Shown here: positions 4,859-46,931 of the stretch, in pieces
Position numbering within the stretch: the first letter of the stretch is position 1
Layout of the letters: each line of letters begins with the position of its first letter
Assembly: GCF_055900595.2 (NCBI RefSeq)
Contig: NZ_CM148325.1
Direction: 5' to 3' (one strand)
DNA: 64,000 nucleotides
Notes under the pieces: generated by a model
The model's input: only the letters and a program-made list of their open reading frames with translations
Told to the model about the DNA's origin: nothing
Database searches by the model: none
Made by a program: the position numbers and the translations under genes

Positions 4859-4900
4859 GGGGCTTCTCCAAAACGTGTTTTTTGTTGTTAATTCGGTGTA

Positions 4901-4940
4901 GACTTGTAAACCTAAATCTTTTCAATTTGGTTTACAAGTC
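4901..4940. promoter_or_regulatory. bio operator (BirA site) in the divergent bioA/bioBFCD promoter region
   Basis: Imperfect 40-bp palindrome GACTTGTAAACCTAAATCTTTTCAATTTGGTTTACAAGTC between the bioB and bioA starts. Confidence 0.8.
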
Positions 4941-4944
4941 GATT

Positions 4945-6234
4945 ATGACAACGGACGATCTTGCCTTTGACCAACGCCATATCTGGCACCCATACACATC
5001 CATGACCTCCCCGCTACCGGTTTATCCGGTGGCGAGCGCCGAAGGTTGCGAGCTGATTTTGTCTGACGGCAGACGCCTGATTGACGGTATGTCGTCCTGG
5101 TGGGCGGCAATCCACGGCTACAACCACCCGCAGCTCAATGCGGCAATGAAGTCGCAAATTGATGCCATGTCGCATGTGATGTTTGGCGGTATCACCCATG
5201 CGCCGGCCATCGAGCTATGCCGCAAACTGGTGGCGATGACGCCGCAACCGCTGGAGTGCGTTTTTCTCGCGGACTCCGGCTCCGTAGCGGTGGAAGTGGC
5301 GATGAAAATGGCGTTGCAGTACTGGCAAGCCAAAGGCGAAGCGCGCCAGCGTTTTCTGACCTTCCGCAATGGTTATCATGGCGATACCTTTGGCGCGATG
5401 TCGGTGTGCGATCCAGACAACTCAATGCACAGCCTGTGGAAAGGCTATCTGCCAGAAAACCTGTTTGCTCCCGCGCCGCAAAGCCGCATGGATGGCGAAT
5501 GGGATGAACGCGATATGGTGGGCTTCGCACGTCTGATGGCGGCGCATCGTCATGAAATCGCGGCGGTGATCATTGAACCGATTGTTCAGGGCGCTGGCGG
5601 AATGCGCATGTACCATCCGGAATGGTTAAAACGAATCCGCAAAATGTGCGTTCGTGAAGGTATCTTGCTGATTGCCGACGAGATAGCCACCGGATTTGGT
5701 CGTACCGGCAAACTGTTTGCCTGCGAACATGCAGAAATTGCGCCGGACATTTTATGCCTCGGTAAAGCCTTAACCGGCGGTACGATGACCCTTTCCGCCA
5801 CGCTCACTACGCGCGAAGTGGCTGAAACTATCAGCAACGGCGAAGCCGGATGCTTTATGCACGGGCCAACCTTTATGGGCAATCCGCTGGCCTGCGCGGC
5901 AGCAAACGCCAGCCTGGCCATTATCGAATCTGGCGACTGGCAGCAGCAGGTAGCGACTATTGAAGCACAACTGCGCGAGCAACTGGCTCCTGCCCGTGAC
6001 GCCGAAATGGTTGCCGATGTGCGCGTGCTGGGAGCGATTGGCGTGGTCGAAACCACTCGTCCGGTGAATATGGCTGCGCTGCAAAAATTCTTTGTCGAAC
6101 AGGGTGTCTGGATCCGACCTTTTGGCAAGCTGATTTACCTGATGCCACCCTATATCATTCACCCGCAACAGTTGCAGCGCCTGACCGCAGCGGTTAATTG
6201 CGCGGTGCAGGATGAAACATTTTTTTGCCAATAA
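4945..6234 (+). CDS. bioA: Adenosylmethionine-8-amino-7-oxononanoate aminotransferase
   Basis: From ATG 4945 reads [25 protein letters not shown], 429 aa; the track ORF start at 4882 lies inside the operator and is unlikely; class III aminotransferase motifs. Confidence 0.9.
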
Positions 6235-6292
6235 CGAGCAGTCAGCGTGAGGTTTTCTGGCTACACTTTCTGCAAACAAGAAAGGAGGGTTC

Positions 6293-6769
6293 ATGAAACT
6301 CATTAGTAATGATCTGCGCGATGGCGATAAGCTGCCGCATCGCCATGTCTTTAACGGCATGGGTTACGATGGCGATAATATTTCGCCGCATCTGGCATGG
6401 GATGATGTTCCTGCGGGAACCAAAAGTTTTGTCGTCACCTGCTACGACCCGGATGCGCCAACTGGCTCTGGCTGGTGGCACTGGGTAGTTGTTAACTTAC
6501 CCGCTGATACCCGCGTATTACCGCAAGGGTTTGGCTCTGGTCTGGTAGCAATGCCAGACGGCGTTTTGCAGACGCGAACTGACTTTGGTAAAACCGGGTA
6601 CGATGGCGCAGCGCCGCCGAAGGGCGAAACTCATCGCTACATTTTTACCGTTCACGCGCTGGATGTAGAACGTATTGATGTCGATGAAGGTGCCAGTGGC
6701 GCGATGGTCGGGTTTAACGTCCATTTCCACTCTCTGGCAAGCGCCTCGATTACTGCGATGTTTAGTTAA
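6293..6769 (+). CDS. ybhB: PEBP/YbhB-family protein
   Basis: 158 aa, MKLISNDLRDGDKLPHRHVF...; located between bioA and the lambda attachment site as in K-12. Confidence 0.85.
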   Translation: MKLISNDLRDGDKLPHRHVFNGMGYDGDNISPHLAWDDVPAGTKSFVVTCYDPDAPTGSGWWHWVVVNLPADTRVLPQGFGSGLVAMPDGVLQTRTDFGKTGYDGAAPPKGETHRYIFTVHALDVERIDVDEGASGAMVGFNVHFHSLASASITAMFS

Positions 6770-7565: not shown

Positions 7566-9619
7566 GAAACTTCCCCATTGGTTGAAAATATGGCTCCTCC
7601 AACTCCAAGTGTATTTCGTGTTGTGCTCAACCTAAGAGGGCTGGAGTCAGAATTAGAATATCCTGTAGCAGAAATAAAAGATCCTCCACTAATAGTCAAC
7701 TGCGGAACATCGGCTATATCTGAATAAGTTCTGTCAGCAACAGTATTATTTATAGCCACATGTGATCCAAAAAAACTTCTTATTGTTTGGTTTTTAACTT
7801 TACTTCCTTCAATGGTTATCCTACTACCACAGTCAGCAATAAATCCTGAATCTGCATCCAGCGTTGCATTCATAAAAGAAGCTTCAGATCTCTCTACATC
7901 AATCCATCTAATATCTTTTGTGGGATTTGCACCAAATACATGACAAATATTAGAGTTAAACCTTACACCATCTTGGAGGTGCATTAATTTTTTTATATCT
8001 GTACCCCATAGCCTTGGAAAATTAACAGATGCTCCTGCATGGCAATCAAATCCCAGCTCAACCCCTGAGATATCTACAGCCTTTCCGGAAATAACAGCAC
8101 CAGTGTCTGCATTAACGGCTGTTCCACAATTGCGCATATCATTACCAGCAACATCAACACAACCCGCACCATCAATACGCACACCAAGTGCACATCCATA
8201 AAAACCTTTTTCAATATTTGGTTCAAGGACTTTACCACTTGTTTCTGCATCACTTTCTTCAACGTCATGTCGTCTTGCATCAACATATGCTGTATGAATG
8301 CACGTTAATCCACGATATGAGCAATGTATAGTTTTATGGTCGCGTATATTAACATTTGAACCATCTCTTACATTCCATCCTATATAACAATAGCTTGCAC
8401 TTGACCCCTGAAAATCTGCTTTAACATTATAAATACAATTAACTGACGCAACCGTACTCTCTGTGCACCGTTCAAACTTACTTACAGGCATTGATGCCTT
8501 GACATTATTTACCAGTTGCAGGGAAGAGTATCTGCTATAAGAAAAATCACATACGTAATACCCTTCTGGCATATATGCAGCAACACTTTCCTCATCAGGA
8601 GCACATCCGGTATGATATGCACTAATTTTTGCACCAAAACTACCATGAATTCCAACGTAGAACTTTCGAGCACCTGAATACGGATAGAAATTAAGTTCAG
8701 CTTTTTGAGTTACAATAAATGCACAAACATCGCTATCATCTCTATTTTCTTCAATCTGAATAGCAAATACAGGACTTTTTGCTGCATCGCAAATGTAAAA
8801 TAAATATTTGTATTCGTAATACGTCCTAACAGTTTTAGTAAACAAACTGGTATCAGAGAAAACCACTGAGTCTTCTGATATTATTTTAATCCATGATAAG
8901 TCACATCCTGCTGAAATTTCTATTTGCTCATTGAGCACAAAACCGGAAAGAATTTTAATTATGCAAAAATCAATGCCATTTTTCCATAGTGGACGCAGTG
9001 CAACAGCTGAGTTTAGAGCATCACTAATAGATTTAAAATTACCATATTCCCCAACTGTTATTGTGAATGCATACCTGGAATTAAATACTGCGGCACTCTC
9101 TCCAGAGTTAATAGCTGCAGATATCATGTCATAATTTGATATAAAATCATTTGGCGTGATTATTTCTGCGTTTTTATTGTGCTGTGTTCTAAGTTTTGAA
9201 TTTACATGAACACTTTTAACTGCAATACGGGAGTCGTCAACAAGTATTTCATTACCCTCTGTTGCTAACTCTTGTCTTAACTGATCCGGGTCATACTTCA
9301 GCACATTCGGAAAATAGAACTGCTGCACACCGTACGCATCATAAACAGCCATAGAATGGCCCTGTACAGTAACGAATTTGGCAATCTGTCCGTTATATAC
9401 CGGATATCCAGCAGCGTTAATGATGATTGGTTGCGAAACAGGAACGTGAGATCCATCTTCGTTCTCTACATAAACCTGAATCTGGTTTTCAGGATTTACA
9501 GGGGCAGTATCAATTTTACCGATATAAATTTTGCCATTGGCTACGGCTTTAAAAGAACGCGCCATAGTGAAGAGTTGCGAAGGCATACTCACTACAACAT
9601 TGGCTGTAATGTCTGTCAT
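7562..9619 (-). CDS. Tailspike protein with P22 gp9-like N-terminal head-binding domain and a different receptor-binding domain
   Basis: N-terminus [38 protein letters not shown]...VLKYDPDQ matches the P22 tailspike head-binding domain as I recall it; remaining ~570 aa unrelated to P22 endorhamnosidase. Confidence 0.85.
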
Positions 9620-9687
9620 TTAATTTGCTCCAGATACAAGGAATCGCCGCAGCATTGCCACAGTGATGCATTATTAATCAAACAAAG

Positions 9688-9702
9688 AGACCACTGTGGT
9701 CT
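9688..9702. promoter_or_regulatory. Palindromic operator-like site between the tailspike and mnt-like gene
   Basis: AGACCACTGTGGTCT (7-1-7 palindrome), resembling the P22 Mnt operator in symmetry and position. Confidence 0.5.
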
Positions 9703-9765
9703 TATTGAGGATGCAACCAGCAGATAATAAGATGCCGATCCACTCACAAAAGCGAGGCATCAAGA

Positions 9766-10134
9766 ATGGGAAGAGATGACCCGCAATTTAATCTGCGGCT
9801 ACCTTACGAATTAAAGGAAAAACTAAAACAGCGAGCCAAATCCAATGGCCGCTCTCTTAATTCAGAATTAGTTCAGATAGTGACTGATGCTGTATCAAAG
9901 CCATCCAAAATTTCAGGCTATCGAGACGATGCGGAACGCATCGCTGATGAGCAGTCAGAGCTTGTTAAGAAGATGGTGTTTGATACGCTGAAGGATTTGT
10001 ACAAAAACCCACCTGATGGTGGGTTCCATTTATTAGTCTTGCTTTGTGGACGGTATAAGGGATGCATTTGCCTCTTTAGGCTTCAAGGTATACATCCCAC
10101 CATTAAATGGATCTACAGCAAGCCAACCAATTAA
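9766..10134 (+). CDS. mnt: Mnt-like ribbon-helix-helix repressor with ~40 aa C-terminal extension
   Basis: MGRDDPQFNLRLPYELKEKLKQRAKSNGRSLNSELVQIV...DAERIADEQSELVKKMVFDTLKDLYK closely follows P22 Mnt; ORF then continues antisense to the neighbouring lipoprotein gene. Confidence 0.75.
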   Translation: MGRDDPQFNLRLPYELKEKLKQRAKSNGRSLNSELVQIVTDAVSKPSKISGYRDDAERIADEQSELVKKMVFDTLKDLYKNPPDGGFHLLVLLCGRYKGCICLFRLQGIHPTIKWIYSKPTN

Positions 10135-10452
10135 CCCACCAAACACAAGGTTTCCACCAATATACCAACCATTAGCATTGGCTTTGATTGGCAGGGTAAC
10201 TGGTTCGTACCCATCCTTCTCCATAGTGATCTGGTAGCTCTTTTTGCCAAAATAACTACCATCTGACTTGGCAAGAGTTACTCCTTGCGGGGTCTTACCT
10301 TGCGCAACAATCACGCCTGATTCGTCTTTTACCTTAAAGCTCGCACCGGAAGGATTGCTGTTCACTTGCACAAGCTGTGTTTCGTCACCAACAATAGTTG
10401 CGCACCCAGATAACATGATAACGCCAGCAACGACGCCAATAATCCTCTTCAT
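10033..10452 (-). CDS. Lipoprotein with PEGA-like domain, function unknown
   Basis: MKRIIGVVAGVIMLSGC lipobox signal; VNSNPSGASFKVKDESGVIVAQGKTPQGVTL resembles the PEGA motif; convergent with mnt. Confidence 0.6.
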   Translation of the reverse strand: MKRIIGVVAGVIMLSGCATIVGDETQLVQVNSNPSGASFKVKDESGVIVAQGKTPQGVTLAKSDGSYFGKKSYQITMEKDGYEPVTLPIKANANGWYIGGNLVFGGLIGWLAVDPFNGGMYTLKPKEANASLIPSTKQD

Positions 10453-10569
10453 ATCAATTTCCATATTTAAAAAACCGGAAACATCCTAATGACAAACCAT
10501 TCAAATGTGAAGTAGGCAAAAGATGTTTACTTTTTTCATGGTATCCTGCTCAAAACTAAGGAGGTTGGC

Positions 10570-10959
10570 GTGAAGCAATTTCTTACTGCTATGTTCTTAT
10601 TCATATCTTTTGGGGCTACAGCAGAGTGCTGGGTCGTTGGAGATATGCGCGGAATAAGCTATTCAGAACGAAATAATTTCCATCCGGAAGAAGATGGTTT
10701 TAGTGGAACATTCATCATTAAGACAAACGGTGAAGATGCCAGCATCACATATTCTGGGACAGATGCGGGCGGCATGGCTTACAAAGCATTGTCTAAAAAC
10801 TCCATCATAGGAATCGGCGCGAATGGCGAAACTCAACGCGTTATCGACTCATGGGTAATACATCCTACTGGAACAGTTTTAATGTCAAAAACCATTTCCG
10901 GTTATGGAAATATGGATTCAACCAAAGCTTTTGTTGGAAAAGTAAAAAGAAAATGTTAG
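10570..10959 (+). CDS. Small secreted protein, family A/B paralogue 1
   Basis: GTG start after AAGGAGG; signal peptide MKQFLTAMFLFISFGATA then ECWVVGD...STKAFVGKVKRKC; shares motifs with the ORF at 36750-37154. Confidence 0.6.
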   Translation: MKQFLTAMFLFISFGATAECWVVGDMRGISYSERNNFHPEEDGFSGTFIIKTNGEDASITYSGTDAGGMAYKALSKNSIIGIGANGETQRVIDSWVIHPTGTVLMSKTISGYGNMDSTKAFVGKVKRKC

Positions 10960-10983: not shown

Positions 10984-12825
10984 TTACTGCTGTGTTGCCT
11001 CAGTAGCAAACAGCGGTCTGATGGCATTCGCAGCGTTATTTATCGCTCTTTCATAGGCTGGTGTTCCTGCTTTGGTGTTTGCCAAACGAAGAAGCATATT
11101 CCTTGCTGCTTTGGACTCATACAAGCGCATCATTGCACCAAAACCAGCCTCAATCCCCATTGATACGCCAAGGGTCGCAGTTGCGCCAATCGTCCTTATC
11201 CTGTTGGCTTGCGATTGCCCCGTCTGAGTTACTACATTTGCGGTGTCTGACCTTGCTGTTTGCTGTAGAACTTCATGAAGAGCATCAAGCTCTTTCATGT
11301 GCTTTCCAGAAAAAATAGTGTTGTAAATTTCACCGCCTGACTGAGATTTCAGCTTATTAACTTCAGTGATGAACTTGGCTGGAGAGTCCCCGGCCTTTTC
11401 CGCTATTTTGCTGACGTAAGCTGCACGCATAGCATCTTTCCCCTTATCATCCAGTGCGCTCCAGATTCGTTTCACGTCAGATGGTTTTCTGCTTAATACA
11501 ACGGTATTTATAAGTTCAGGACTGGCTTCACTGCTTGCCTTGTTGAGCTTGTTGGCAATGTTTTTATTAAGCACCTTATTATAAACGTTTGCATAATCGG
11601 AATTTGCTTTAAGGTATTTTGCTGCGTCTGATGCACCGAGGTTTTTAGCAACTGCGTTACGAAGGTCTTTTGACATTGCATTCTCTACCATATTGGTAGC
11701 TGCTTTTGCCTGGTTGGGGAAGACCATAGCATCTCCCTGAACATTAGATCTAAATGCTGTTCTGTGCTGACGCAAGAGATCAAACGTAACATCCAAATCA
11801 GTTGCAGGGTTTGCTAATTCTTCACGTAGGTTACGCAAGGATGTAAGCAGGCTTTGATTGGCAGACGTCCCAAGCCGTTCCTGTCTTGCGATCGCTGTAT
11901 TCAGAGCATTCATGGTATTTGTGGTATCAACTGCGGCATTACCCATTTTATTGGTGACGTCATTGATAACAGCGCCAGCGGCATCCTTCCGCCCCCTTAA
12001 CGTGGTGGTCAGAGATTTCACCACATCATCAGGGTTGTACTCACCAAAACGGTCAAAATAATTGCTTACCAGCTTACTCCGCGTTGCATATTGCTCTGCT
12101 CGCTTTGAGCCCGTCCCGAGCAAAGCCCCCTCGGCATCCTGAGTAAGGCCGCGAGTGAAAGCATTTTTCGGCGGGATAACATCAGATGTCATTGGTGTCA
12201 CGCCCATCGATTCTGATGTGGCAATTTTCTTCGCCACTTCTGGCGCAATATCACCTTTTATAGCCGTTATTCCACGCCCTATTCCCTTTGCTGCTGCGGA
12301 AAGAACACCCTGAGCGGCAAGGTTAACTCCGGCATTTTTAGCTGCATTTTGTGCGAAATCGCCTTTCTGATTTGCGGCCTCTGCCAGCGATCCAATAGCC
12401 ATGCTTCCTGCCGTTCCAACTCCTGGAACTAAATACCCACCAATTGTTTCACCGGCTTGTGCGTATGGGTCTGTCGGTTTGTCTACTGGACGATAAACAT
12501 CATCCAAAACTTTTGGCCCACCAAGCCCCTGACTGATTGCATTAATCAGACTTGCGCCACCCTGCAATACGTCAAATGGTATGTTTACCAGACCACGACC
12601 AGCCTGTTCTGCAATTTGCCCTGCACTTTGACCACCAGTGAGCCAATCGCCAGCTTGTTGCATCAATGATGGTTCTTCACGTACTGGTGCATTATTGGCC
12701 TGATTAACTGTTTGTTGCTGAACAACCTGACCAGCAAAATAATCATCAATGGCGGCTCCAATATCTTCCGTGCTCGTACCATCAGGGAAGGTAAATGTCT
12801 TACCGTTTGCAGTTACTTTCATCAT
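10984..12825 (-). CDS. Ejection (internal virion) protein, P22 gp16-like by size and position
   Basis: 613 aa, Gly/Ala-rich; last of three co-oriented genes after the tail genes, matching the P22 order 7-20-16. Confidence 0.6.
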
Positions 12826-35801: not shown

Positions 35802-37154
<1,353 letters not shown>

Positions 37155-44246: not shown

Positions 44247-44465
44247 ATGTACTTGACACTTCAGGAGTGGAACGCACGCCAGCGACGCCCAAGAAGCCTT
44301 GAAACAGTTCGTCGATGGGTACGCGAGTGCAGGATATTCCCTCCTCCGGTTAAGGATGGAAGAGAGTATCTGTTCCACGAATCAGCGGTAAAGGTTGACT
44401 TAAATCGACCAGTAACAGGTAGCCTTTTGAAGAGGATCAGAAATGGGAAGAAGGCGAAGTCATGA
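44247..44465 (+). CDS. xis: Excisionase Xis
   Basis: 72 aa MYLTLQEWNARQRRPRSLETVRRWVRECRIFPPPVKDGREYLFHESAVKVDLNRP, lambda Xis. Confidence 0.92.
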   Translation: MYLTLQEWNARQRRPRSLETVRRWVRECRIFPPPVKDGREYLFHESAVKVDLNRPVTGSLLKRIRNGKKAKS

Positions 44466-45513
44466 GCGCCGGGATTTACCCCCTAACCTTTATATAAGAA
44501 ACAATGGATATTACTGCTACAGGGACCCAAGGACGGGTAAAGAGTTTGGATTAGGCAGAGACAGGCGAATCGCAATCACTGAAGCCATACAGGCCAACAT
44601 TGAGTTATTTTCAGGACACAAACACAAGCCTCTGACAGCGAGAATCAACAGTGATAATTCCGTTACGTTACATTCATGGCTTGATCGCTACGAAAAAATC
44701 CTGGCCAGCAGAGGAATCAAGCAGAAGACACTCATAAATTACATGAGCAAAATTAAAGCAATAAGGAGGGGTCTGCCTGATGCTCCACTTGAAGACATCA
44801 CCACAAAAGAAATTGCGGCAATGCTCAATGGATACATAGACGAGGGCAAGGCGGCGTCAGCCAAGTTAATCAGATCAACACTGAGCGATGGATTCCGAGA
44901 GGCAATAGCTGAAGGCCATATAACAACAAACCCTGTCGCTGCCACTCGCGCAGCAAAATCAGAGGTAAGGAGATCAAGACTTACGGCTGACGAATACCTG
45001 AAAATTTATCAAGCAGCAGAATCATCACCATGTTGGCTCAGACTTGCAATGGAACTGGCTGTTGTTACCGGGCAACGAGTTGGTGATTTATGCGAAATGA
45101 AGTGGTCTGATATCGTAGATGGATATCTTTATGTCGAGCAAAGCAAAACAGGCGTAAAAATTGCCATCCCAACAGCATTGCATGTTGATGCTCTCGGAAT
45201 ATCAATGAAGGAAACACTTGATAAATGCAAAGAGATTCTTGGCGGAGAAACCATAATTGCATCTACTCGTCGCGAACCGCTTTCATCCGGCACAGTATCA
45301 AGGTATTTTATGCGCGCACGAAAAGCATCAGGTCTTTCCTTCGAAGGGGATCCGCCTACCTTTCACGAGTTGCGCAGTTTGTCTGCAAGACTCTATGAGA
45401 AGCAGATAAGCGATAAGTTTGCTCAACATCTTCTCGGGCATAAGTCGGACACCATGGCATCACAGTATCGTGATGACAGAGGCAGGGAGTGGGACAAAAT
45501 TGAAATCAAATAA
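44443..45513 (+). CDS. int: Tyrosine integrase Int
   Basis: 356 aa MGRRRSHERRDLPPNLYIRNNGYYCYRDPRTGKEFGLGRDRRIAITEAIQAN...; overlaps xis; catalytic R/HxxR/Y region (HELRSL...Y); lambda Int. Confidence 0.95.
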   Translation: MGRRRSHERRDLPPNLYIRNNGYYCYRDPRTGKEFGLGRDRRIAITEAIQANIELFSGHKHKPLTARINSDNSVTLHSWLDRYEKILASRGIKQKTLINYMSKIKAIRRGLPDAPLEDITTKEIAAMLNGYIDEGKAASAKLIRSTLSDGFREAIAEGHITTNPVAATRAAKSEVRRSRLTADEYLKIYQAAESSPCWLRLAMELAVVTGQRVGDLCEMKWSDIVDGYLYVEQSKTGVKIAIPTALHVDALGISMKETLDKCKEILGGETIIASTRREPLSSGTVSRYFMRARKASGLSFEGDPPTFHELRSLSARLYEKQISDKFAQHLLGHKSDTMASQYRDDRGREWDKIEIK

Positions 45514-45586
45514 TGATTTTATTTTGACTGATAGTGACCTGTTCGTTGCAACAAATTGATAAGCAATGCTTTTTTATAATGCCAAC

Positions 45587-45601
45587 TTAGTATAAAAAAG
45601 C
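45587..45601. repeat. Prophage-host junction core (gal-proximal), int-adjacent
   Basis: TTAGTATAAAAAAGC preceded by lambda P'-arm-like sequence (TGATAGTGACCTGTTCGTTGCAACAAATTGATAAGCAATGCTTTTTTATAATGCCAACT) and followed by host AGGC. Confidence 0.85.
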
Positions 45602-45647
45602 AGGCTTCAACGGATTCATTTTTCTATTTCATAGCCCGGAGCAACCT

Positions 45648-46931
45648 GTGAACACATTTTCAGTTTCCCGTCTGGCGCTGGCATTGGCTTTTGGCGTGAC
45701 GCTGACCGCCTGTAGCTCAACACCGCCCGATCAACGTCCTTCTGATCAAACCGCGCCTGGTACCTCTTCTCGCCCGATTCTGTCGGCAAAAGAAGCGCAG
45801 AATTTCGATGCTCAACACTATTTTGCGTCCCTGACGCCAGGTGCTGCAGCGTGGAATCCTTCCCCGATTACTCTGCCTGCGCAACCTGACTTTGTTGTCG
45901 GCCCGGCGGGTACTCCGGGTGTAACGCATACCACGATTCAGGCGGCGGTAGATGCGGCAATTATCAAGCGCACCAACAAGCGCCAGTATATTGCCGTGAT
46001 GCCTGGTGAGTATCAGGGAACGGTGTATGTCCCTGCTGCTCCGGGTGGAATTACTCTGTACGGTACAGGTGAAAAACCGATTGATGTGAAGATTGGGCTT
46101 TCCCTTGATGGGAGCATGAGCCCTGCCGACTGGCGTCACGACGTCAACCCGCGCGGCAAATATATGCCAGGTAAACCAGCGTGGTATATGTACGATAGCT
46201 GCCAGAGCAAACGCAGCGACAGTATCGGCGTTCTGTGTTCTGCGGTCTTCTGGTCACAAAACAACGGCCTGCAACTGCAAAACCTGACCATCGAAAACAC
46301 GCTGGGTGATAGCGTAGATGCGGGTAACCATCCGGCGGTGGCACTGCGTACTGATGGCGACAAAGTGCAGATCAATAACGTCAACATTCTCGGTCGTCAG
46401 AATACATTCTTTGTCACCAACAGTGGTGTGCAAAACCGTCTGGAAACCAACCGTCAGCCGCGTACTCTGGTGACCAACAGTTACATTGAAGGGGATGTGG
46501 ATATCGTTTCTGGTCGCGGCGCAGTGGTGTTCGATAATACCGAATTCCGCGTGGTGAACTCACGTACTCAGCAAGAAGCGTATGTGTTTGCACCGGCTAC
46601 GCTGTCTAACATCTATTACGGTTTCCTCGCCGTAAACAGCCGCTTCAATGCTTCCGGTGATGGCGTGGCGCAACTGGGCCGCTCGCTGGATGTTGATGCC
46701 AATACCAACGGTCAGGTGGTGATCCGTGATAGCGCCATCAACGAAGGTTTTAACACGGCTAAACCGTGGGCCGATGCGGTGATTTCCAATCGCCCGTTTG
46801 CGGGTAATACTGGCAACGTTGATGATAACGACGAAGTACAGCGTAATCTGAATGACACTAACTACAACCGCATGTGGGAATACAATAACCGCGGCGTGGG
46901 TAGCAAAGTGGTTGCAGAGGCGAAGAAGTAA
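45648..46931 (+). CDS. ybhC: Pectinesterase-family outer-membrane lipoprotein
   Basis: GTG start; MNTFSVSRLALALAFGVTLTACSS lipobox; 427 aa. Confidence 0.85.
   Translation: MNTFSVSRLALALAFGVTLTACSSTPPDQRPSDQTAPGTSSRPILSAKEAQNFDAQHYFASLTPGAAAWNPSPITLPAQPDFVVGPAGTPGVTHTTIQAAVDAAIIKRTNKRQYIAVMPGEYQGTVYVPAAPGGITLYGTGEKPIDVKIGLSLDGSMSPADWRHDVNPRGKYMPGKPAWYMYDSCQSKRSDSIGVLCSAVFWSQNNGLQLQNLTIENTLGDSVDAGNHPAVALRTDGDKVQINNVNILGRQNTFFVTNSGVQNRLETNRQPRTLVTNSYIEGDVDIVSGRGAVVFDNTEFRVVNSRTQQEAYVFAPATLSNIYYGFLAVNSRFNASGDGVAQLGRSLDVDANTNGQVVIRDSAINEGFNTAKPWADAVISNRPFAGNTGNVDDNDEVQRNLNDTNYNRMWEYNNRGVGSKVVAEAKK

What the first reader, a model, noticed from the sequence alone, without database searches (positions are those of the whole stretch)
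10570..10959. Paralogue of the cI-linked secreted protein at the P22 sieA/immI slot
This 129 aa signal-peptide protein shares ordered motifs with the cI-linked ORF: ECW[VI]V right after the signal peptide, a Gly/Ser-rich middle, ET..W.I, STK[AS]FVG.V, and a C-terminal Cys. Two diverged copies of the same secreted family sit at the two best-known exclusion hot spots of one prophage. That argues for a functional family rather than a spurious ORF.
Basis: seen in the sequence. Interest (0 to 1): 0.75.

Follow-up and report, generated by a model that had tools for sequence, protein, structure and literature searches.

The report
Secreted Hex-family gene replacing sieA
A real, conserved prophage gene sits where phage P22 keeps its sieA exclusion gene; it encodes a small secreted beta-barrel protein that is a diverged relative of the phage 434 exclusion protein Hex, carried next to the repressor of the same prophage, and it most likely blocks entry of rival phages.

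Summary
Window 10570..10959 (+) encodes a 129-aa protein with a signal peptide. It is a true paralogue of the ORF after cI (36750..37154): 28% identity, E 9e-12, z = 14 against shuffles, and both hit phrog_2651. Hex is the "heterologous exclusion" gene that makes lambda-imm434 lysogens of Salmonella exclude P22. The target is under purifying selection (dN/dS 0.12 to 0.23). It occurs full-length in at least 114 of 5,426 complete E. coli genomes. In 71 of 80 viral contigs a gene 16 homologue lies within 300 nt downstream; the window copy converges on gene 16 as P22 sieA does, and no type-A SieA is present. Across the family there is a signal peptide in 194 of 196 members, an invariant Cys pair joining the two termini, and a second co-occurring Cys pair in 73 members. 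The predicted fold is a small lipocalin-like beta-barrel (pLDDT 88). This indicates a periplasmic protein, which conflicts with the published cytoplasmic anti-RecA role of Hex. Relatives occupy other prophage moron slots and integron cassettes. Best reading: a periplasmic superinfection-exclusion factor, mechanism unproven. It is a new member of a known but poorly understood family.

The parts
10570..10959 (+). Target CDS: 129-aa Hex-family (phrog_2651) precursor protein, stop codon included
   Evidence: ORF list and sequence. phrog_2651 E 2.9e-61. dN/dS 0.23. 97% identical to Emek orf129.
10558..10564 (+). Shine-Dalgarno AAGGAGG, 5 nt upstream of the GTG start
   Evidence: Read directly from the sequence. 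It supports the 129-aa start over the 122-aa start that PGAP calls.
10539..10547 (+). Candidate extended -10 promoter element (TGgTATCCT) for the target gene; low confidence
   Evidence: Seen in the sequence only. The consensus scan did not call a + strand promoter here. It did call a divergent - strand promoter at 10511..10483 for the lipoprotein gene. P22 sieA likewise has its own promoter.
10570..10623 (+). Predicted Sec signal peptide (MKQFLTAMFLFISFGATA, cleavage ATA|EC)
   Evidence: It has a positive n-region, a hydrophobic core and A at -3 and -1. The same architecture occurs in 194 of 196 family members. The AF2 model shows a low-confidence helix at residues 4-11 outside the barrel.
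10624..10956 (+). Mature 111-aa all-beta domain (9 strands, lipocalin-like barrel) with Cys20 and Cys129 at its two ends
36750..37154 (+). Paralogue: phage 434 Hex / Sf6 gp38 orthologue (134 aa). Its ATG overlaps the cI stop (ATGA).
   Evidence: 131/134 identical to the 434 'repressor protection protein' and to Sf6 gp38. phrog_2651 E 1.1e-58.
36121..36753 (+). Phage 434-type cI repressor, upstream gene of the Hex copy
   Evidence: 208/210 residues identical to 434 cI.
10984..12825 (-). P22 gene 16-type ejection (DNA transfer) protein. It converges on the target with a 24-nt gap and forms one boundary of the slot.
   Evidence: ORF. In 71 of 80 viral contigs that carry the gene, a gene 16 homologue lies within 300 nt downstream. 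In P22, gene 16 and sieA converge with a 22-nt gap.
9766..10134 (+). mnt (Arc-family repressor of immI), the other boundary of the slot. Here it carries a terminal frameshift extension.
   Evidence: PHROG Arc/Mnt hits. Comparison with epsilon34 and FORC_031 Mnt.
10033..10452 (-). Independent neighbouring moron: a 139-aa lipoprotein (lipobox LSGC), homologue of epsilon34 gp15
   Evidence: phrog_6823 E 3e-86. 138/139 identical to epsilon34 gp15. It is present without the target in epsilon34.

Best explanation
The gene encodes a Sec-exported, soluble periplasmic protein. After cleavage at ATA|EC it forms a roughly 111-residue up-and-down beta-barrel whose first and last strands are stapled by a Cys20-Cys129 disulfide. 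It is a diverged paralogue of phage 434 Hex. It is expressed from its own promoter in the lysogen, from the position where P22 carries sieA. I propose that it acts as a superinfection-exclusion factor. In the periplasm it would bind a component needed by an incoming phage, so that DNA delivery fails after adsorption. The most likely target is the trans-envelope ejection apparatus of P22-like phages (gp7/gp20/gp16 conduit, needle, or the virion murein hydrolase). The two paralogues in one prophage would then cover different targets. Shown here: the gene is real and under selection, it is homologous to Hex, it has export signals and a conserved Cys pair, it folds as a beta-barrel, and it matches sieA in position and geometry. 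Inferred: the disulfide, lysogenic expression, the exclusion function, and the step that is blocked. Confidence is about 0.95 that it is a secreted Hex-family protein and about 0.5 that it is a periplasmic exclusion factor.
For: Homology to Hex. Hex is the only family member with a phenotype: a lambda-imm434 lysogen of Salmonella excludes P22 and a hex- lysogen does not (Susskind and Botstein, as cited in PMC3564112). Export: signal-peptide features are present in 194/196 members and A/S/G at the -1 site in 178/196. The mature part has an even Cys count (2 or 4) in 190/197. A second Cys pair co-occurs in 73 members against 3 with only one of the two, on adjacent strands of one hairpin. The mass-spectrometry-defined N-terminus of the stable Hex fragment, E43, is exactly the predicted signal-peptidase site. 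Full-length Hex was toxic when over-expressed. Position: the gene converges on gene 16 with a 24-nt gap, as sieA does in P22 (22 nt). No type-A SieA homologue is found in the window or in any fetched locus, including the 78 close target-type viral contigs. SieA blocks the gp16/gp20 conduit (PMC10883804). Independence from cI: family members lie at the sieA slot (tandem pair in Serratia), after the tail fibres, beside the lysis genes, convergent with a repressor gene, in satellite-like islands and in integron cassettes. None of these is co-transcribed with a repressor.
Confidence: 0.5

Rival explanations
1. It is a periplasmic protective binder that is not aimed at phages. As a lipocalin-like barrel it would sequester or inhibit something harmful that reaches the periplasm: lysozymes or other murein hydrolases, colicins or type VI effectors, or hydrophobic antibiotics and host-derived molecules. 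This would make it a host-benefit lysogenic-conversion gene.
Against: The one phenotype known for the family is phage exclusion. There is no Pfam MliC/PliC or lipocalin match, even at E <= 10. The target type is tied to one slot of P22-like phages, next to the ejection-protein genes.
Confidence: 0.25
2. It works like published Hex. It would be a cytoplasmic 'repressor protection' protein that binds the prophage repressor and damps RecA-stimulated autocleavage, stabilising the lysogen.
For: PMC3564112 reports that the hex- lysogen induces 30-fold more often, but only in recA+ cells. It also reports that the sHex fragment blocks RecA-stimulated cleavage of the 434 and P22 repressors in vitro and partly complements in vivo. 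The window prophage carries the 434 repressor.
Against: The target is not linked to any repressor gene, and family members occur in integron cassettes that have none. Signal peptides and paired cysteines are conserved family-wide. sHex is residues 1-61 of the mature protein, about five of nine strands and lacking the C-terminal Cys partner, and it was purified with guanidine. The hex- allele was a replacement by a cat cassette with its own promoter and terminator between cI and OL/PL, so cis effects were not excluded (this is inference).
Confidence: 0.05
3. It is a small outer-membrane beta-barrel of the Lom/Ail/OmpX kind. It would alter the cell surface, affecting adhesion, serum resistance or receptor masking.
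Confidence: 0.07
4. It is a spurious or decaying ORF with no function.
For: No annotated domain was found, databases label it 'hypothetical protein', and the start codon is GTG.
Against: dN/dS is 0.12 for the mature part. There is a strong Shine-Dalgarno sequence. Full-length copies occur in at least 114 E. coli genomes. The profile search finds 189 clusters at 50% identity with E <= 0.001. The fold prediction is confident.
Confidence: 0.01

Closest known systems
Phage 434 Hex (= Sf6 gp38; annotated 'repressor protection protein' in 434 records; phrog_2651)
   Same: It is homologous: 28% identity and the same PHROG. It has the same length, the same signal peptide followed by x-Cys-Trp, the same C-terminal Cys and the same predicted barrel. 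Both are carried by temperate lambdoid or P22-like phages and are placed to be expressed in the lysogen.
   Different: Hex is the second gene of the PRM-cI operon, with its start overlapping the cI stop. The target stands alone at the gene 16 / mnt slot, apparently with its own promoter, and is found in phages with other immunity regions such as Emek. The sequences are highly diverged. The published Hex activities (P22 exclusion, anti-RecA cleavage) have not been tested for the target.
P22 SieA (superinfection exclusion A)
   Same: It occupies the same genomic position and geometry: convergent on gene 16 with a gap of 22 to 24 nt, on the mnt strand, and presumably with its own promoter as in P22. 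No type-A SieA was found alongside it in any locus examined. Both are envelope-located prophage proteins, so it may work like SieA by blocking DNA delivery.
   Different: There is no sequence similarity. [quoted passage not shown] The target is a soluble all-beta protein with a cleavable signal peptide. It is not a member of the SieA family.
Soluble periplasmic exclusion proteins of other phages: T4 Spackle (inhibits the gp5 tail lysozyme) and P1 Sim (processed periplasmic protein blocking P1 DNA entry). These comparisons rest on my own knowledge.
   Same: These are small, signal-peptide-bearing periplasmic proteins that stop infection after adsorption. They are the closest functional model for what is proposed here.
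   Different: They are unrelated in sequence, since PHROG matching returned only phrog_2651. As I recall, Spackle is helical and not a beta-barrel. No shared target is known.
Calycin / lipocalin-like and other small soluble beta-barrels (NHBA C-terminal barrel, Cap15, avidins, FABPs; PliC/MliC-type inhibitors such as PhiA)
   Different: There is no sequence or Pfam relationship. Foldseek finds only family members at significant E-values. The terminal disulfide staple and the N-terminal x-C-W motif are specific to this family.

Membership tests
Hex / Sf6 gp38 family (phrog_2651) | Significant full-length sequence similarity to 434 Hex | tested here: met
   BLASTP E 9e-12 over 129 aa. Shuffle z = 14.2. 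phrog_2651 E 2.9e-61, covering profile positions 1-116 of 117.
Hex / Sf6 gp38 family (phrog_2651) | N-terminal signal peptide followed by x-Cys-[WYF], and a Cys within about 0-3 residues of the C-terminus | tested here: met
   Cys20 is present in 197/197 members and Cys129 in 189/197. Signal-like segments occur in 194/196. The target has ATA|ECW...KC.
Hex / Sf6 gp38 family (phrog_2651) | Gene lies immediately downstream of cI in the PRM operon | tested here: not met
   The target is 26 kb from cI, between gene 16 and mnt. This is a feature of the Hex subgroup and not of the whole family.
Hex / Sf6 gp38 family (phrog_2651) | Excludes heterologous phage (P22) from the lysogen | not testable with these tools
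   The phenotype is known only for 434 Hex, through PMC3564112 citing Susskind and Botstein.
Hex / Sf6 gp38 family (phrog_2651) | Inhibits RecA-stimulated repressor autocleavage | not testable with these tools
   This was reported for the sHex fragment only. The predicted periplasmic location argues against it, but that is inference.
SieA | Sequence similarity to P22 SieA, including the FxRYPxEAxxFNK motif | tested here: not met
   tblastn with P22 SieA found nothing in the window or in any fetched locus. Types B and C were not used as queries.
SieA | Integral inner-membrane protein with three or more transmembrane helices | tested here: not met
   The only hydrophobic segment is the N-terminal one. 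The rest is a nine-strand beta domain.
SieA | Located between P22 genes 16 and 9, convergent with gene 16 | tested here: met
   The window layout compared with P22. The gaps are 24 and 22 nt. A gene 16 homologue lies within 300 nt downstream in 71 of 80 viral contigs.
MliC/PliC periplasmic lysozyme inhibitors | Match to the Pfam MliC family or a close structural match | tested here: not met
Lipocalin / calycin fold | Eight- to ten-stranded up-and-down antiparallel barrel | tested here: inconclusive
Known anti-phage defence systems (PADLOC) | Match to any PADLOC-DB model | tested here: not met
   No family matched at E <= 1 for the target, for Hex or for the neighbouring lipoprotein.

The most novel reading that the evidence does not exclude
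The Hex family would be a previously unrecognised class of soluble, disulfide-stapled periplasmic beta-barrels that block phage genome delivery. It would be spread as a mobile cassette across at least four prophage moron slots, satellite-like islands and integron cassette arrays. The two 28%-identical copies in this prophage would have different target specificities. The published cytoplasmic anti-RecA mechanism of Hex would then be an artefact of a half-barrel fragment and a cassette-replacement allele.
Probability: 0.3. Interest if true: 0.7.

Novelty: new member of a known kind. Interest (0 to 1): 0.5.

Why it matters
About two thirds of sequenced P22-like phages lack sieA (22 of 66 carry it; PMC10883804). 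What fills that slot is largely unstudied. This gene is one recurrent filler. It links that slot to Hex, a classical but mechanistically unclear exclusion gene.

If the periplasmic reading is right, it gives a simple, testable second way of blocking P22-type DNA delivery. Escape mutants should map to the ejection proteins or the virion hydrolase. It would also call for a re-examination of the only published mechanism for Hex.

The presence of relatives in integron cassettes would extend the idea that cassette arrays carry envelope-level anti-phage genes.

Tried and rejected
- **Domain and defence libraries.** Pfam, NCBIfam, PADLOC and PDB sequence searches with a single sequence and with a profile all returned nothing useful.
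- **Species-genome scan.** The scan with the family alignment used a poor peptide pattern and returned only two loci. I analysed context through exact-protein look-ups and a viral-contig scan instead.
- **Literature.** Searches for later work on Hex, for 'repressor protection protein' and for Sf6 gene 38 found nothing beyond PMC3564112.
- **Rejected readings.** A lipoprotein reading fails because only 11 of 196 members have a lipobox-like sequence before the Cys, and the usual residue before Cys is E, D, N or Q. An outer-membrane barrel is unlikely. There is no third family copy in the window.
- **Not done.** I could not inspect the model coordinates, so the Cys-Cys distances are inferred from strand positions only. 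I ran no further search on a fused-partner model, because a model without paired alignments would not be informative.

Full report
**1. The observation**

Window 10570..10959 (+) is an intact 129-aa ORF. It starts at a GTG that lies 5 nt after AAGGAGG. In 38 unique alleles recovered from viral contigs, the same position is GTG in 32 and ATG in 6. This supports the 129-aa start over the 122-aa start that PGAP annotates in E. coli FORC_031.

Its likely start is the ATG at 36750, which overlaps the cI stop codon. Curators of phage 434 and Sf6 chose the same start.

The two proteins align over their full length at 28% identity, E 9e-12. With the signal peptides removed, the Smith-Waterman score is 109 against 30.5 +/- 5.5 for 5,000 shuffles (z = 14.2). 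Both match phrog_2651 end to end. The paralogy is therefore real.

**2. What the cI-linked copy is**

The cI gene in the window is the phage 434 repressor (208/210 residues identical). The ORF after it is 131/134 identical to the 434 gene annotated 'repressor protection protein' and to Sf6 gene 38. This gene is hex.

According to PMC3564112, Susskind and Botstein found that lambda-imm434 lysogens of Salmonella exclude P22 and that hex- lysogens do not. The same paper reports that hex- lysogens induce spontaneously 30-fold more often in recA+ cells. It also reports that a 61-residue fragment, sHex, inhibits RecA-stimulated cleavage of the 434 and P22 repressors in vitro.

I found no later work on Hex. 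The GenBank record of Salmonella phage Emek already notes that its orf129, which is 97% identical to the target, resembles Sf6 gp38. The homology itself is therefore not new. No function has been proposed for the sieA-slot copy.

**3. Anatomy of the family**

A profile search of 1.84 billion representative proteins found 189 clusters with E <= 0.001 and 100 with E <= 1e-10. I aligned 197 full-length members and found the following:
- Cys20 is invariant and Cys129 is present in 189 members.
- 194 of 196 members have a hydrophobic signal-like segment about 20 residues before the first Cys.
- The residue two positions before that Cys, the predicted -1 site, is A, S or G in 178 members.
- Only 11 members have a lipobox-like sequence.
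- The mature part has 2 or 4 cysteines in 190 of 197 members.
- An extra Cys pair co-occurs in 73 members, against 3 members with only one of the two.

AlphaFold2 run on a 25-sequence alignment gives a confident all-beta model (pLDDT 88.4, nine strands). The invariant cysteines lie at the start of the first strand and at the end of the last. The extra pair lies on the two strands of one hairpin. I infer disulfides from this and did not see the coordinates.

**4. The gene is real and where it lives**

Pooled dN/dS among the 38 alleles is 0.23, and 0.12 for the mature part. The gene with its flanks occurs full-length in 114 of 5,426 complete E. coli genomes and partly in 284. The Hex copy occurs in 206. 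Strain EC332 carries both, 26.6 kb apart, about the spacing seen in the window.

Among the 80 viral contigs kept from IMG/VR, 78 carry the target type at 88% identity or more. In 71 of the 80, a gene 16 homologue lies within 300 nt downstream. Of the rest, seven still show P22-type tailspike, mnt or gene 16 homologues nearby, with extra genes or a contig end in between; the other two are the distant loci L100 and L101. The neighbouring gene 16 alleles range from 58% to 99% identity, so the gene moves as an independent module.

In P22, sieA converges on gene 16 with a 22-nt gap and has its own promoter. The target converges on gene 16 with a 24-nt gap. tblastn with P22 SieA found no homologue in the window or in any fetched locus. 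SieA types B and C were not tested.

Other family members occupy other accessory slots:
- A Serratia P22-like prophage has two tandem copies between mnt and gene 16.
- A Pantoea lambda-like prophage has one after the tail-fibre genes, at the prophage end.
- A Rahnella prophage has one on the opposite strand, between the lysis genes and the terminase region.
- One metagenomic phage fragment has a copy convergent with an S24 repressor gene.
- Two viral contigs have it in an integrase-bounded element, next to a homologue of a gene annotated DUF4065 in Emek.
- In Aeromonas caviae it lies at the edge of a variable island.
- Two distant clades are integron cassettes, each gene flanked by attC-like repeats: 18 copies in L014 and at least 7 in L020.

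The family is thus a mobile accessory gene. It is mostly but not only phage-borne, and it is usually not linked to a repressor.

**5. How it most likely works**

The established points are as follows. The gene is conserved, it is a secreted-type Hex homologue, and it sits in the sieA position. The one phenotype known for the family is exclusion of P22. SieA, the usual occupant of the slot, blocks the gp16/gp20 DNA-delivery conduit (PMC10883804).

From these I infer that the target is a periplasmic superinfection-exclusion factor that interferes with genome delivery after adsorption. It would bind either the ejection-protein conduit or needle, or the virion-associated murein hydrolase. That second option would resemble T4 Spackle, a comparison that rests on my own knowledge. 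I put this reading at about 0.5.

This reading conflicts with the published cytoplasmic mechanism of Hex. Three details in that paper fit export better:
- Full-length Hex was toxic when over-expressed.
- The stable fragment begins at E43, exactly the predicted signal-peptidase site.
- sHex comprises only about five of the nine strands, lacks the C-terminal Cys, and was purified with guanidine.

The hex- allele was a replacement by a cat cassette with its own promoter and terminator, placed between cI and OL/PL. A cis effect on repressor expression was therefore not excluded. This last point is my inference and has not been shown.

**6. Rivals**
- A protective periplasmic binder or inhibitor that is not aimed at phages (0.25). 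This fits the fold and the integron contexts, but not the known phenotype or the tight linkage to the ejection-gene slot.
- Repressor protection, as published for Hex (0.05). This is hard to reconcile with the absence of any repressor linkage and with the export signals.
- An outer-membrane barrel of the Lom/OmpX kind (0.07). The size, strand lengths and C-terminus argue against it.
- A spurious ORF (0.01). This is refuted by the selection and conservation data.

**7. Novelty and score**

This is a new, diverged member of a known family, in a new genomic position, with its function still untested. The added value is threefold: the link between the sieA slot and Hex, the family-wide evidence for a periplasmic disulfide-bonded barrel, and the resulting doubt about the published mechanism. 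I rate interest at 0.5.

**8. Dead ends**

These are listed under 'tried and rejected'. No domain, defence-system or solved-structure match was found. The fold hits were uninformative. The species-genome scan was unproductive.

Noticed in passing
window 9766..10134 (+), A-run at about 10001-10006: The mnt ORF is 122 aa and not the usual 83 aa. The A-run just before the normal stop is one base shorter than in epsilon34 and E. coli FORC_031 (AAAAAACCC becomes AAAAACCC). The frame therefore shifts near the end (normal ending KKPT becomes KNPPDGG...) and reads through the terminator hairpin at 10006-10025 into the antisense of the lipoprotein gene.
   Followed up: partly
window 10033..10452 (-): There is a second, independent moron in the same slot: a 139-aa lipoprotein (lipobox LSGC) with a glycine-rich hydrophobic C-terminal part. 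It is 138/139 identical to epsilon34 gp15 and belongs to phrog_6823 (function unknown). It has only a weak PEGA-domain hit and a promoter-like site at 10511..10483. It could be another envelope-level exclusion or conversion gene.
   Followed up: partly
window 9619..9766: The immI region is reduced here. Only 146 bp separate the tailspike gene from mnt, with no arc, ant or sar. Related prophages and phages (FORC_031, epsilon34) that carry the same lipoprotein keep arc and ant.
   Followed up: no
window 4882..6769 and 44443..46931: The P22-like prophage is flanked by bioA and ybhB on one side and by ybhC on the other, with a tyrosine integrase at 44443..45513. To my knowledge this is the neighbourhood of the lambda attachment site, not the thrW site used by P22.
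   Followed up: partly
L007 7001..7806 (Serratia marcescens P22-like prophage): Two tandem family members (128 aa each) sit between mnt and gene 16. This shows duplication or stacking of the family within the sieA slot.
   Followed up: partly
L014 1..10010 and L020 1..5167 (metagenome contigs): Distant family members (P0116, which has two Cys pairs, and P0240) are single cassettes in integron-type arrays. These are small same-strand ORFs separated by 75 to 130-nt attC-like repeats, with 18 copies in L014.
   Followed up: partly
PMC3564112 versus window 36678..37154: The published 158-aa Hex ORF starts inside cI in another frame. The 434 and Sf6 records use the 134-aa start instead. The published 'active fragment' sHex begins exactly at the predicted signal-peptidase cleavage site (E43 of the 158-aa numbering) and ends about halfway through the predicted barrel.
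   Followed up: partly
L017 3627..3995 (E. coli FORC_031) compared with window 10570: RefSeq (PGAP) annotates the target 7 codons short, starting at the ATG at window 10591. This removes the charged n-region of the signal peptide and would hide the export signal from automated predictors.
   Followed up: yes
L100 6676..7536 and L001 2214..2663 (Emek orf149): A gene annotated DUF4065 in Emek lies near the family member there. A homologous ORF lies next to it in an integrase-bounded element (L100), paired with a small membrane-protein ORF. My call that this is a toxin-antitoxin or abortive-infection-like pair rests on resemblance only; its PHROG hits have unknown function. The family seems to travel with other defence-like cargo.
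   Followed up: no
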